This document shows, piece after piece, positions 4,376 to 46,940 of a stretch of 64,000 nt of DNA. Every line of letters starts with the position of its first letter. Within the stretch, counting starts at the first letter, position 1. Origin of the DNA: Eledone cirrhosa (Eukaryota); NCBI GenBank assembly GCA_964016885.1, contig OZ024740.1, forward strand, positions 194,556,001 to 194,620,000. Direction: 5' to 3'. The notes beneath the pieces were generated by a model that was not told the origin of the DNA, did not search any database, and saw only the letters and a program-made list of their open reading frames with translations. A program made the position numbers and the translations under genes.

Positions 4376-4954
4376 AATAGAGAAGACAGATGGTTGAAAC
4401 GAATAAAATTAATTTAATTAATTAATTGTCCAGGAAATGTTTAATAACTATTATATTGAGGTGGGCTGTCTCTATTCAGACAGACGATAAAATTAATGGC
4501 TGAACAAACTTCTCATCTGCGACTAAACAATATTTTTGTTTAAATCTGAGAAAACAGTAATTTTCTCATAGTAATGTTATTTCTTTAAAAACATTTACCA
4601 TGTTTTAAAAATCCTCTCTCGTTCAATTGATTCATTTCAAATTATTGTCCTGCGCACGTAACAGTACAACATTGTTTAACTATCACCTTCCCTCACAGCG
4701 TCTATCTCACTCTCTATCACTCTGTATAAACACACACACACACATATCTGTATATATATATATATATTCTATGACCTTTTCTGTTTTCAACGGAAATTTC
4801 AATACTTATATATATATATATATATATATATATATATATATATATATATATATATATATGTGTGTGTGTGTGTGTGTGTAAATGTGTGTACATATATATA
4901 TATACATATATATACACTTATGTGATATGTTCATATATATATATATATATATAT

Positions 4955-5049
4955 TTAATATAGAAAAGCTTCTACAGGACTAGAACTTTTTCATTCGTGA
5001 GGAATCATCAGGAGATTCCTGATGATTTCTCACGAATGAAACAGTTCTA
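4955..5049. mobile_element. Short fold-back of a hammerhead-containing terminus (same family as 22114-22315)
   Basis: Palindrome centred near 5011; CTGATGA at 5019 and GAAAC at 5038. Confidence 0.7.
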
Positions 5050-5685
5050 AAAACCGGTTTGTCTGTGTGTTTACATACAGAATAGCTGGCCACTCACAGT
5101 AAAGTGACCAGTGAAAAAAAAACTTGGTACATCTACATATGTATACGTGTGTGTATTCATATACATACTAGTATTTCAGTATACATATATGGATGTACAT
5201 CTTTAACTTAATTGTTTAAGCGTCAGTCATACAAAAGTGAGTTACAAACGAAACGAAATGTAATTTCGTTTCGTTATTTGTTTTTATCGTCTCCGTTGAA
5301 CCGGTACTTACTCACACTCTATGCAAATTGGTCTGCCCACTACTAATTTTCATAGAAAAAGCATATAACGATATGTGCTTTTACGATTCTCTAGAGAGGC
5401 CGGAAGATAGGTAAATATTGCTGATGAGTTGTAACAACAACGAAACTAGTTCAATATTCCTTGTTTGGCTTTCTGGAGAATAGAGGAAAGGTGTTTCCTC
5501 AAAAACCAGTATGACTCTAAAAACCGGTTTGTCTGTGTGTTTACATACAGAATAGCTGGTCACTCACAGTAAAGTGACCAGTGAAAAAAAAAACTTGGTA
5601 CATCTACATATGTATACGTGTGTGTATTCATATACATACTAGTATTTCAGTATACATATATGGATGTACATCTTTAACTTAATTA
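5047..5685 (+). mobile_element. Retrozyme-like non-coding tandem unit, period about 470 nt
   Basis: 5047-5213 is repeated at 5517-5684; contains ATGCAAAT at 5321 and a hammerhead at 5421; ends in (TA)n. Confidence 0.75.
5410..5460 (+). ncRNA. Minimal type I hammerhead ribozyme
   Basis: aatattg-CTGATGA-gttg taacaa caac-GAAAC TA GTT-caatatt; stems I and II pair perfectly and stem III is palindromic (ACTAGT). Confidence 0.9.
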
Positions 5686-44083: not shown

Positions 44084-46472
44084 GAAGAAGCCCTCAATGC
44101 CCATATGGTGATGTGGACGAATATAATGCAGCCCAACAAAAGGACTGCCAACAACTTCCAGGCCTGGAACAATGACGTGTCAGCGTTTTATGGTTTTCGA
44201 GAAGACTACAAAACGAGCAGTGACCCTGTCGCGGGACCACCAACACGGTCAGTCTGTGGAGCTAACATTGCTAGTAACTACAGACTGTCCTACTTCCTCT
44301 CCCTGATCATACACCCCGTCATTGAAATGTCCCCAGATGTATGTGACAGCACGGAGGACCTCCTCAGCAGAATCGGCGAGAGTAACCGATCTAGGGACCT
44401 AACAAACTGCATAATAGGTAGTATGGCTGTTGTGTCCCTGTATCCATCTATTGACGTGGATTTTGCTGTGAAGAAATGCGTAGAAATGATCAGTGAGAGC
44501 AATGTTGAGTTCCGTGGGATTGATACTAGTGAGCTGGAACTCCTACTTAAACTTACCTATAGTAATAATTACCTAGACACATATGACCTTAGCAACCTGT
44601 TCCCTACAAGACCAGCAAGAGGCAGACCACCTACCATTACCTCAATGGCCAAAAAAACCCACACAGATAGATGGAACGGGTGGACCAGAGCCATACGGAC
44701 ACCCGAAAACCACGATGAACTAAAGAAAATGATTGCACATGCGGTGGGAGCCAGCATAAAATTAACCCTTAAGGAACATATGTTCAAATTTAATGGAAAA
44801 ACATATGCCCAAGAGGAAGGAGCAGCCATTGGTGTTAGCATTGCAGGCGACATAGCTAACTTATTCATGGTATGGTGGGACAGTAGACTTAAACTTAAAC
44901 TTAAAGAACAATTAGAAGACCCCTTAACCCTGATAATGTACTCCCGCTACGTTGATGATATAAACATCGTAGTTAAAACACCCCCACTAGAGAACAGTCA
45001 GGAATTAGAGAAAAGCACAATGGAAAGCATCCAGCAAATAGCTAACTCCATCCACCAGAGTATTAGAGTTACTATAGACCACCCAAGTAAACACCACAAC
45101 CATCGATTACCTGTACTAGACACAGAGCTCTGGTTAGATACCATTAATAACAAAAAACAAATCCTACATTCCCATTATGCCAAACCCATAGCTTCCAAAT
45201 ATCTGATCCACCGAAACTCAGCTGTTTCGGACCATACCAAAATCAACATACTGATTGCGGATTTGGTACGGGTGATGAGAAACGTGTCCCGCATGTGCAA
45301 CCCCGAAGAACTAGAGAGACACATACAACACTTCATCCCCGTATGCAGTTCTCTGGTTACAATCAGAGAGATAAAATCAGAGTGTATAGAGGAGCCAGAA
45401 CCAAATGGGAAAAAATCGTAAATAATGACACAAATGGGACCTGCCCCTTGTATAGGAGCAAATTTTGGAATAGAATAGAAAGAACTAGGAATAAGGCTAA
45501 TAGAATAAACTCATGGTATGATAGCAATAAATACCAGAGTGTAATGTTCATCGATAAAACCCCTAGAGGTGAATTAGCTTACAAATTTAGAAGGGCCCTA
45601 GATAAACATAAACTCAATATTAAGATAGTAGAAAGACCAGGTACCTCCGTAAAAACACTTATTAGCAAGACATACCCTTTTAAAAGACCCCCCTGTATAG
45701 ATAAGAAATGTATAACCTGTAAATTAAGCCCCCATATTAACTGTAAAACTAGAAATGTATTATATAACATAAGATGTACTGAAGGACAATGTAGAGACAA
45801 AAATATAGTGTACATATGTGAGACAGCTCGTAGTGTAGGGGAACGGATAAATGAACACTGGCGAGACCTTCAAGATAGTAAAGAATCATATGTACTCTAC
45901 CAACATGCTAAAATAGAACATAAGGGTAAATTAGAGAACATAGAAATAAAAATAGAATCTACACACAGAAATGACGCAATGTTTAGACAAATCACAGAGG
46001 CAATAAACATAAAAGAATTACAACCAAAATTAAATAGAAAACATGAGTGGAACAGCAACATCACAACTTACAATTAAGGACAAAATGAAAACACACACGC
46101 ACATAGAACAAACAACCAACCTGTAACATGTAAATAAACAAATAAATAAACGAATATAAACACACACAGATACCCGGATGTGGCGCATGCGCAGACTGAG
46201 CACACAACACACACACAGAAACAAGATGGCGTAGGACAGAACAAAGGAGAGGCACAAAAACAAAGAAAAGAATTCCCAGTCACTGAAGAGGTCACAGAAT
46301 GTGTGACGAAAGAACTTTGACAATATATAAACAACCATCTGGTTGTGGAACCAACCAACGAACCAAAAATTTATAAATTCCTAAATTTATAAATTTATTA
46401 TGATAAATTGAAGTGAACGCAACTGGTGCCTGTGTTTCTTATTGGCAACATGACCCTCCCAAAGTATAACAA
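44081..46472 (+). mobile_element. Penelope-like element, right arm, 5'-truncated
   Basis: ORF 44105-45421 has SLYPSID, GAAIG and RYVDD; frameshift near 45340 into ORF 45295-46077 (Cys-rich linker and GIY-YIG). Confidence 0.92.
46279..46321 (+). ncRNA. Type I hammerhead in PLE 3' end
   Basis: gtca-CTGAAGA-g gtcac agaatgt gtgac-GAAAG AA CTT-tgac; mirror copy at 42204-42246. Confidence 0.85.
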
Positions 46473-46940
46473 TATATATATATATATATATATATATATA
46501 TATATATATATATATATATATATATATATATATATATGGTGCGTGTTAACACTACCTACGTAGTATTTTAATATATATAAAAATGAATTGATAAATGTAT
46601 GAAAAAATAAGTTTGATAAAATGTATATGTATTGACAATACTAAGATTTAAAATTAAAGCTTAAGCAGCTTTTATAAACTAAATCTACTACAACACACAA
46701 ATGAAGATACATTGGTTTGTATAGTGGGAATTACAACAATGGAAAAACAACAAAAGCAAAAGTATCACTCCCACCTAATCACAGCTCTCAAATATCCAGA
46801 AACTTACAAAATAATCATACCACATCTAACAATGTGTTCCTCGGTTTCCTACCTCAAATTAATATCCTTCTCCTTGTACCATAGTGCCATTCCAATATCA
46901 TGACTATGATGAATATTCCATTTATTTAAATAGAACAACT

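What the first reader, a model, noticed from the sequence alone, without database searches (positions are those of the whole stretch)
4808..46536. (TA)n arrays colonised by many fold-back inserts with a 3' end on both sides
Seen: about 20 inserts from more than ten families sit between (TA)n tracts, and most are two 5'-truncated arms joined head to head so that both outer ends are 3' ends (oriented by ORF or hammerhead strand). Known: PLEs make inverted pLTRs and some prefer microsatellites. Inference: coding PLEs and ORF-less passengers share one pathway in which both ends of a break in the self-complementary (TA)n prime reverse transcription and the two cDNAs are then joined.
Basis: partly seen in the sequence, partly recalled or inferred. 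Interest (0 to 1): 0.8.

Follow-up and report, generated by a model that had tools for sequence, protein, structure and literature searches.

The report
Penelope elements primed from both ends
The back-to-back inserts are Penelope-like retrotransposons that land in TATATA repeats, and because one arm almost always ends at the start of a short 'tail' and the other at its end, each insert was likely made by both ends of a cut chromosome copying the same RNA, which would explain a long-puzzling feature of these elements.

Summary
Between 4955 and 46471 lie 17 same-family two-armed inserts, 2 chimeric ones and 1 two-family one, bounded by (TA)n with 3' ends outward. They are Penelope-like elements (PLEs; Hydra-like and Neptune-like motifs). 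Inverted 5' copies, a tail on one end and (TA)n targeting are published PLE traits.

The genome adds a test of mechanism. Each family has two fixed outer ends, at tail start (B) and tail end (A); 145 of 147 two-armed inserts pair one of each. Either arm may reach further 5' (26 vs 21; in 12 more the arms barely overlap). Junctions vary within one young subfamily, and paired arms share private variants. This favours twin priming of one RNA at two sites, then end-joining, over the published self-priming model.

One correction: several 'ORF-less passengers' (A, B, G, probably J) are short products of ORF-bearing families; short A, B and D arms stop at a promoter-like point. Fold-backs are genome-wide (21 of 225 inter-(TA)n segments vs 21 of 10,992 controls). 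No long reads were available, and the single-RNA dimer step is inferred.

The parts
4955..5683 (.). Chimeric insert: family D tail-less arm (4955-5013, -), D 5' start with hammerhead core (5016-5049, +), switching at the hammerhead cleavage site into tandem family E (5046-5683, +)
5928..6095 (-). Family B tail-less arm, hammerhead at 6025
6097..6353 (+). Family B tailed arm (tail about 6265-6353), hammerhead at 6167
6432..7871 (-). Family G long tail-less arm with RT/thumb/GIY-YIG fragments
7872..8095 (+). Family G short tailed arm, hammerhead at 7964
8246..8435 (.). Family A short fold-back: tail-less arm 8246-8299 (-), tailed arm 8302-8435 (+); young subfamily
8522..8826 (-). One-armed family I/J insert, hammerhead at 8717
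9021..10189 (.). Family A: tail-less arm 9021-9207 (-), long tailed arm 9208-10189 (+) starting in the end of the endonuclease region
10473..11667 (.). Family F: tailed partial-tandem arm 10473-11286 (-), junction insert 11275-11321 identical to H at 12075-12121, tail-less arm 11318-11667 (+)
11926..14076 (-). Family H PLE arm (RT YxDD, thumb, CxCx5C linker, GIY-YIG), head to head with a family C arm
14077..14526 (+). Family C tailed arm (one monomer, hammerhead at 14220)
14649..14846 (.). Family A short fold-back (tail-less arm left, tailed arm right)
21194..21682 (.). Chimeric insert: J tailed arm 21194-21460 (-), J 5' start 21463-21520 (+), family C piece 21526-21682 (+)
22113..22320 (.). 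Family D short fold-back: tail-less 22113-22180 (-), tailed 22182-22320 (+)
23116..24195 (.). Family K: tail-less partial-tandem arm 23116-23785 (-), tailed arm 23786-24195 (+)
24217..27209 (-). One-armed family L PLE: endonuclease with CxCx5C, long 3' region, hammerhead at 24395
27250..27471 (.). Family A short fold-back (tailed arm left, tail-less right, A/T run at the centre)
27587..27896 (.). Family M two-armed insert (tail-less left, tailed right)
27953..29021 (-). One-armed K-like partial tandem; its 5' junction holds 28990-29021 matching the neighbouring M tail (27850-27881)
29317..29875 (-). One-armed family C partial tandem
31889..33059 (.). Family C: long tail-less partial-tandem arm to 32613 (-), tailed arm 32614-33059 (+)
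35272..35496 (.). Family G pLTR-only fold-back: tailed 35272-35395 (-), 41-bp junction insert, tail-less 35437-35496 (+)
36842..37046 (.). Family Q: tailed 36842-37010 (-), tail-less 37015-37046 (+)
37643..37980 (.). Family B variant: tail-less 37643-37809 (-), shorter tailed arm 37821-37980 (+)
38111..40465 (.). Family N PLE: long tailed arm 38111-39845 (-) with thumb, CxCx5C and GIY-YIG; tail-less arm 39846-40465 (+), 99% identical
41025..41654 (.). Family O: tail-less 41025-41312 (-), tailed 41322-41654 (+)
41996..44083 (-). Family P PLE tailed arm (tail 41996-42053), hammerhead core at 42242
44084..46471 (+). Family P PLE tail-less arm, 363 bp longer at its 5' end; RT, Cx4CxxC linker, GIY-YIG, hammerhead core at 46283

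Best explanation
These inserts are Penelope-like retrotransposons whose two arms end at two fixed sites one tail apart and share their template's private variants, and they were likely made by twin priming: both 3' ends of a cut in (TA)n would each start reverse transcription on the same RNA, one at the tail end and one at the tail start. Inferred steps: a protein dimer holds one RNA at both sites; the GIY-YIG nuclease makes a staggered double-strand cut (about 14 nt); each 3' end pairs with a few UA bases and is extended; with no RNase H the RNA survives and the downstream enzyme displaces the upstream cDNA. The two cDNAs stop independently, anywhere in the element or at the RNA's 5' end, and are joined head to head by microhomology-mediated repair before second strands are filled in. 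Priming at the pLTR copy next to the transcription start would give the short ORF-less hairpins. Tandem hammerhead RNAs (C, E) would borrow the same machinery.
For: Shown: two end positions per family next to (TA)n, e.g. A 904/982, J 180/267, P 2392/2448 in reference coordinates. 145 of 147 two-armed inserts are tail + no-tail, 109 of 109 outside family P. Of the 145: 74 arms equal within 15 nt, 26 tail-less longer, 21 tailed longer, 12 tailed arm confined to the tail, 12 unresolved. In one young A subfamily 30 pairs show 17 spacings, the commonest in 5 of 30. Paired arms (110 pairs) share private variants: A 6 vs 0.2 expected, B 5 vs 0.1, D 4 vs 2.3, J 17 vs 0.8, P 17 vs 1.1. P junctions: 1-6 nt overlap in 15 of 31, blunt 3, short insert 6, other 7. 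Two junction inserts match neighbouring DNA. Flank duplications in 6 of 20 informative inserts, 4 exact at 13-14 bp; shuffles mean 1.4, max 5. Short A and D arms stop at an initiator-like A about 30 nt after a TATA-like box present in long copies (consensus recalled). Literature: the anole PLE protein cuts and extends both strands, starts at two sites that bound the tail, and is predicted to be a dimer (PMC11167929).
Against: One RNA versus two RNAs of one source locus cannot be told from genome sequence. Discordant polymorphic sites remain between paired arms (A 59, P 42; null 215 and 161), clustered at the outer end in the window's P insert. Tailed arms show no clear pile-up at site B, which a collision on one RNA might give (by eye). 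A cap-derived G is not shown (A 5 of 28, B 5 of 14). Full-length A copies do not pile up at the putative start (1 of 30 at q846, 1 at q857). B lacks a TATA-like box at -30. 14 of 20 informative inserts show no scored flank duplication. PMC11167929 found no strand difference in start-site use and no homology at the start site. Many inserts are one-armed. Post-insertion gene conversion could add to arm similarity.
Confidence: 0.62

Rival explanations
1. Both ends prime, but on two RNA molecules from the same source locus held by an asymmetric complex that assigns one start site to each.
For: Fits independent inner ends and shared private variants and the residual discordant sites. Two-family inserts (11926-14526, 4955-5683, 21194-21682) could record two RNAs in one event.
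Against: Needs a built-in asymmetry to give 145 of 147 tail + no-tail pairs at a symmetric target, and needs both RNAs to come from one locus in families with 10,000-20,000 arm copies. The chimeras can also be deletions or sequential insertions.
Confidence: 0.17
2. Self-priming: an antisense RNA (published model, PMC3846280) or the first cDNA folds back and copies itself, and the hairpin is then integrated and trimmed to leave the tail on one arm.
For: 74 of 145 inserts are near-perfect hairpins, arms share a template, and short inverted microhomology at the junction is also expected. Antisense self-priming with trimming at B can give tail-less-longer and tail-only cases.
Against: The priming strand must always be the 5'-longer arm, so each version predicts one polarity. 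cDNA snap-back from the tail end cannot give 26 + 12 tail-less-longer inserts; antisense self-priming with trimming at B cannot give 21 tailed-longer ones. In family P alone the split is 13 to 13. Both versions would have to run at equal rates.
Confidence: 0.11
3. The hairpins are inherited units (MITE- or foldback-like DNA elements, or RNA read through the hairpin) copied whole.
For: 29 of 29 other loci fetched for 8246-8436 are identical to each other, junction included (2 of them share flanks with a third).
Against: That set was ranked by likeness to the junction. An arm-only pattern gave 9,963 matches and 17 spacings in 30 pairs. Ends are asymmetric, not terminal inverted repeats. Subfamily variants sit in both arms.
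Confidence: 0.05
4. The palindromes are assembly or library artefacts near (TA)n.
For: No long read or listed contig piece spans the window's own junctions.
Against: Arms differ by up to several percent, end at family-fixed sites, and have spacers up to kilobases that continue the ORF of one arm. Short-read contigs of one sample (X1, X2) and raw reads of another (X15) show left-arm to right-arm joints of family P at other positions, and X1/X2 show (TA)n loose ends at site B.
Confidence: 0.02

Closest known systems
EN+ Penelope-like elements, Hydra clade (Craig et al. 2021, PMC8557442, passages read)
   Same: C-terminal GIY-YIG nuclease, CxCx5C linker (H, L, N in the window; long A and J copies), RW motif in A, hammerheads, insertion into (TA)n, partial tandems, inverted 5'-truncated copy, tail on one end.
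   Different: Tails here are about 33-155 bp, not 30-40. The one-tail rule, arm geometry and template sharing are counted here; the passages read call the cycle 'still undefined'. Family A shows only the 3' half of a hammerhead. No phylogeny was built.
Neptune/Nematis-type PLEs (same paper)
   Same: Family P has RT, a Cx4CxxC linker and two cysteines inside GIY-YIG, and follows the same two-site rule.
   Different: Clade not placed by a tree.
Anole Poseidon PAc in vitro (Frangieh et al. 2024, PMC11167929, parts 1-3 of 4 read)
   Same: Both strands cut and extended, two RT start sites bounding the tail, AT-rich target, predicted dimer.
   Different: In the parts read it does not address inverted inserts or link the two starts to the two ends of one break, and it reports no homology at the start site; here a few TA-like bases follow both sites in A and P and site B in B.
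L1 twin priming (Ostertag and Kazazian 2001; recalled, not read)
   Same: Both ends of the target prime on one RNA and the cDNAs are joined by microhomology, giving an inversion.
   Different: L1 uses the poly(A) tail plus a variable internal site and gives little duplication, in a minority of inserts. Here both sites are fixed and adjacent, the arms usually overlap fully, and two-armed inserts are common.
Non-LTR retrozymes (bioRxiv 10.64898/2026.07.22.740005, part 1 of 5 read)
   Same: Families C (about 430 bp) and E (about 470 bp) are tandem, ORF-less, hammerhead-bearing repeats.
   Different: Here they also occur as inverted, one-tailed inserts in (TA)n; cleavage and circular RNA were not tested.

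Membership tests
EN+ Penelope-like element | RT followed by C-terminal GIY-YIG endonuclease in one ORF | tested here: met
   P: RVT_1 at E 5.7e-4, below the curated cut-off; Atlas hits 0.93-0.96 with RVT_1/HTH_animal; N: HTH_animal/GIY-YIG 0.95-0.97; motifs and order. Window copies are truncated or frameshifted.
EN+ Penelope-like element | pLTR / partial tandem organisation with tail continuing into the next unit | tested here: met
   A tail is followed by 5' leader and ORF in L057 and in 26 of 30 loci found with the leader; tandems in C, E, F, K
EN+ Penelope-like element | Inverted 5'-truncated copy with tail on one end | tested here: met
   145 of 147 two-armed inserts
EN+ Penelope-like element | Hammerhead motif in the pLTR | tested here: met
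   Cores in B, C, D, E, G, I/J, L, P (Rfam HH9 at 5403-5474 below gathering score). No exact core found in F, K, M, N, O, Q; A shows a half motif by eye.
EN+ Penelope-like element | RT groups with PLE/telomerase RTs in a phylogeny | not tested
   No tree built
Hydra clade | CxCx5C linker before GIY-YIG | tested here: met
   H, L, N, long A (L249), long J (L033); not detected by the script for G (frameshifted) or B
Hydra clade | No CCHH; RWK and DKT motifs | tested here: inconclusive
   RWR in A; DKT read by eye in L057; the N-terminal part is missing from window copies
Hydra clade | Insertion into (TA)n | tested here: met
   B: 30 of 30 pattern-sampled loci reach (TA)n at or near A or B; ends
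Naiad/Chlamys | N-terminal endonuclease, no canonical hammerhead | tested here: not met
   Endonuclease is C-terminal in every ORF-bearing family seen
Neptune/Nematis (family P) | CX2-5CxxC linker and cysteines inside GIY-YIG | tested here: met
   Cx4CxxC; two cysteines between the GIY and YIG halves in the translation
MITE / foldback DNA transposon | Symmetric terminal inverted repeats, fixed internal structure | tested here: not met
   0 of 33 symmetric; junctions variable
Non-LTR retrozyme (C, E) | Tandem ORF-less units each with a type I hammerhead | tested here: met
Non-LTR retrozyme (C, E) | Self-cleavage and circular RNA | not testable with these tools
   No RNA holder listed
Twin priming (L1 type) | Two first-strand cDNAs from one RNA molecule | tested here: inconclusive
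   Same template lineage shown; one molecule not shown

The most novel reading that the evidence does not exclude
Double priming is the normal PLE integration route: one dimer loads one RNA at two fixed sites, each end of a staggered break copies it, and host end-joining closes the gap. Inverted pLTRs, the one-sided tail and tens of thousands of short ORF-less hairpins (double 'strong-stop' products ending at the transcription start) all follow from this one reaction, shared by Hydra-like and Neptune-like elements and by retrozyme passengers.
Probability: 0.5. Interest if true: 0.8.

Novelty: new variant of a known kind. Interest (0 to 1): 0.62.

Why it matters
How PLEs make their tandem and inverted inserts is an open question stated in the field's own papers, and the published explanation is self-priming on an antisense template. 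This genome holds a very large natural sample (roughly 26 strict fold-backs per Mb in 0.8 Mb sampled; 1,600-21,000 exact arm matches per family tested) whose geometry distinguishes the models and links the in vitro two-start, two-strand result to real insertions. It gives direct bench tests. It also suggests that many short hairpins that repeat pipelines might call MITEs or microRNA precursors in such genomes are PLE by-products.

Tried and rejected
Rfam scan: only sub-threshold microRNA-like hits and one weak hammerhead among the 150 rows shown of 268; own pattern search used instead. DNA searches with B and A arm+tail returned nothing because the words are too common; not evidence of absence. 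The 'inherited hairpin' idea raised was rejected after unbiased pattern sampling. Cap-derived G at short-arm starts: inconclusive. Pile-up of full-length A copies at the putative start: not seen. Pile-up of tailed arms at B: not clear. ORF link for D: long upstream versions found but no ORF tied to D. In one search family G was first scored with a wrongly oriented reference; corrected. Gap assignment double-counts a few J and M spacers, so single categories may be off by a few. Reads: no RNA holder listed; no piece spans the window junctions. No structure or complex prediction was run, as the window ORFs are incomplete. PMC522041 was not held. Earlier scan findings: none. The SINE-like control family (8 of 161 hits ending at (TA)n) includes partial hits and is only rough.
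Full report
Setting. The window is G000:C1:194556001-194620000 in a 3.0-Gb animal assembly; the species was not determined. (TA)n tracts cover 9.9% of the window against 4.6% of 80 evenly spaced 10-kb stretches.

Observation. Per-segment self-comparison and reading give 17 same-family two-armed inserts, two chimeric ones, one two-family head-to-head pair, four one-armed inserts and some short pieces in 4955-46471. ORF fragments and hammerhead cores point outward wherever they exist. With one strict rule, 12 of 36 window segments, 21 of 225 genome-sample segments and 21 of 10,992 random same-length segments are fold-backs. 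The window is a rich spot of a genome-wide phenomenon, roughly 26 per Mb. Exact 35-mers inside the arms occur 9,963 (young A), 20,857 (P), 1,637 (B), 14,498 (D) and 2,326 (C) times, with reversed controls at 0. Among the first 100 listed places, neighbours within 4.5 kb are head to head in 39 of 39 (B) and 25 of 28 (P) cases. At unselected loci the arm runs into (TA)n at one of two points in 29 of 30 (P) and 30 of 30 (B, two with a 10-nt offset).

What the elements are. P encodes RT plus a C-terminal GIY-YIG with a Cx4CxxC linker (Neptune-like). H, L, N and long copies of A and J carry CxCx5C (Hydra-like) (clade features from PMC8557442). No tree was built. Family A, seen as 190-bp hairpins, is the pLTR of a full-length PLE: in L057 the tail runs into a leader and the ORF, and 26 of 30 loci found with that leader have A sequence directly upstream. 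The young A 35-mer also sits on endonuclease-bearing copies (L247-L249). B has long copies with the endonuclease (L296, L297, L311, L312); J has one such case. C and E are tandem, hammerhead-bearing and have no ORF hit. D has longer upstream forms but no ORF was tied to it.

Two fixed ends. Each family abuts (TA)n at two positions, the tail end A and the tail start B. Tails are about 33-155 bp. In all loci held at that point, with duplicates and the junction-selected A hits dropped, 145 of 147 two-armed inserts pair a tailed with a tail-less arm. The exceptions are one tail+tail case with 1 kb between arms and one no-tail pair with a 74% arm. Part of the P set was chosen on tailed hits; outside P the count is 109 of 109. 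C gave no automatic pairs because its B end is low-complexity; by eye 3 of 3 complete C inserts fit and 4 were incomplete or interrupted. Free choice of start site per arm would give about half same-type pairs.

Independent inner ends. Of the 145, 74 arms reach the same point within 15 nt, 26 have the tail-less arm longer, 21 the tailed arm longer, 12 a tailed arm confined to the tail, and 12 are unresolved. In the window's P insert the 363-bp spacer continues the RT frame of the tail-less arm, while the tail is on the other arm. P junctions show 1-6 nt overlap in 15 of 31, blunt joins in 3, short inserts in 6, other in 7 (from BLAST end overlap). Two window junctions hold 32-47 bp matching a neighbouring insert, as end-joining repair would leave.

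Made anew each time. The first search returned 29 other loci identical to each other, junction included, but it ranked by the junction. With an arm-only pattern, 30 close pairs (one 692-bp pair left out) have 17 spacings from 37 to 87, and the window's spacing occurs in 5.

One template. In 110 pairs with overlapping arms, variants private to the pair are shared by both arms: A 6, B 5, D 4, J 17, P 17, against 0.2, 0.1, 2.3, 0.8, 1.1 for random pairing. Discordant polymorphic sites are 59, 1, 1, 6, 42 against 215, 35, 25, 95, 161 (first seen). The remainder may be recurrent mutation, different pLTR copies of a tandem RNA, or some two-RNA events. Gene conversion is not excluded.

Fixed inner end of short hairpins. 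Most short A arms stop about 60 nt inside B, B arms about 169 nt, D arms about 60 nt. In long copies these points are an A in an initiator-like context, with a TATA-like box about 30 nt upstream in A and D but not B (consensus recalled). I read this as the RNA's 5' end. A cap-derived G is not shown, and full-length A copies do not pile up there, so whether short RNAs come from long or short source copies is open.

Target. Where the flank has a non-TA base, 6 of 20 inserts (of 85 with exact ends) repeat it on both sides, four exactly at 13-14 bp; shuffles give mean 1.4, max 5 of 500. This suggests, but does not prove, a staggered cut.

Reality of the structures. Contigs of one sample (X1, X2) and raw reads of another (X15) contain P joints from left arm to right arm at other positions, including tail-only tailed arms (42023/46439 in X1 and X15, 42027/46433 in X1 and X2), and (TA)n loose ends at B. 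No piece spans the window's own junctions, and no long reads were offered.

Mechanism. Shown: two fixed ends, one of each per insert, independent truncation, same template, repair-like junctions. From the literature: the anole PLE protein cuts and extends both strands, starts at two sites bounding the tail, and is predicted to dimerise (PMC11167929). Lack of RNase H in PLE RTs is recalled. Inferred: a dimer on one RNA primes both ends of one break and the cDNAs are joined. The published model is self-priming on an antisense template (PMC3846280 Discussion). Any self-priming route fixes which arm is longer, yet both polarities are about equally common (13 to 13 in P).

What is known. Inverted 5'-truncated copies, a 30-40-bp tail on one end and (TA)n targeting are described (PMC8557442 passages; PMC2377424 passages; PMC3846280 passages). 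Non-autonomous hammerhead tandems are linked to PLEs (bioRxiv 10.64898/2026.07.22.740005, part 1 of 5). PMC13282606 (passages) did not bear on the mechanism. Seven searches (listings and abstracts) found no paper applying twin priming to PLEs or counting the one-tail rule. The library lacks most subscription papers, including the 2004-2006 PLE papers, and no supplements were read, so such a model may be in print.

Verdict. A real feature of known elements, with a genome-scale signature that supports a specific and testable integration mechanism differing from the published one. Interest 0.62.

Noticed in passing
window 4955-5683: The D arm switches into family E exactly at D's predicted hammerhead cleavage site (shared TCTA); both outer ends are tail-less. 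Template jump onto a cleaved RNA, or a later deletion.
   Followed up: partly
window 11926-14526 and 21194-21682: Head-to-head joins of a coding or hammerhead family (H, J) with tandem family C; could record helper and passenger RNA in one event.
   Followed up: partly
window 11275-11321 and 28990-29021: Junction inserts matching neighbouring elements (H 12075-12121 at 100%; M tail 27850-27881 at 97%), which would date the order of insertion.
   Followed up: partly
window 401-567, 18760-19677, 46937-47428, 54422-54629, 55275-55471, 61698-61875: An abundant SINE-like family (125 hits in the 0.8-Mb sample), mostly not ending at (TA)n; used as a rough control.
   Followed up: partly
window 30499-31743, 33373-34982, 54697-55260: Fragments of other reverse transcriptases, LINE-like by recall (RVT_1 hits for the first two), not folded back.
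   Followed up: no
window 35495-37646: 2.1-kb degenerate (TA)n array with a recurring ATATTTATTG unit, also at 33060-33251, interrupted by one insert.
   Followed up: no
window 8302-8355 and family A generally: Family A keeps the 3' half of a hammerhead (GAAA, stem with palindromic loop, TC) but no CTGANGA core; about 10,000 exact arm copies suggest it spreads without a canonical ribozyme.
   Followed up: partly
L007, L014, L019: Three family A copies on different contigs share the same flanks, so they come from a larger duplicated unit.
   Followed up: no
L063:5223-5603 and L118:1961-2431: SINE copies inserted into PLE hairpins with apparent short duplications on both sides.
   Followed up: no
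window 25205-25363 and 56238-56420: Two-copy tandem duplications of 80 and 91 bp.
   Followed up: no
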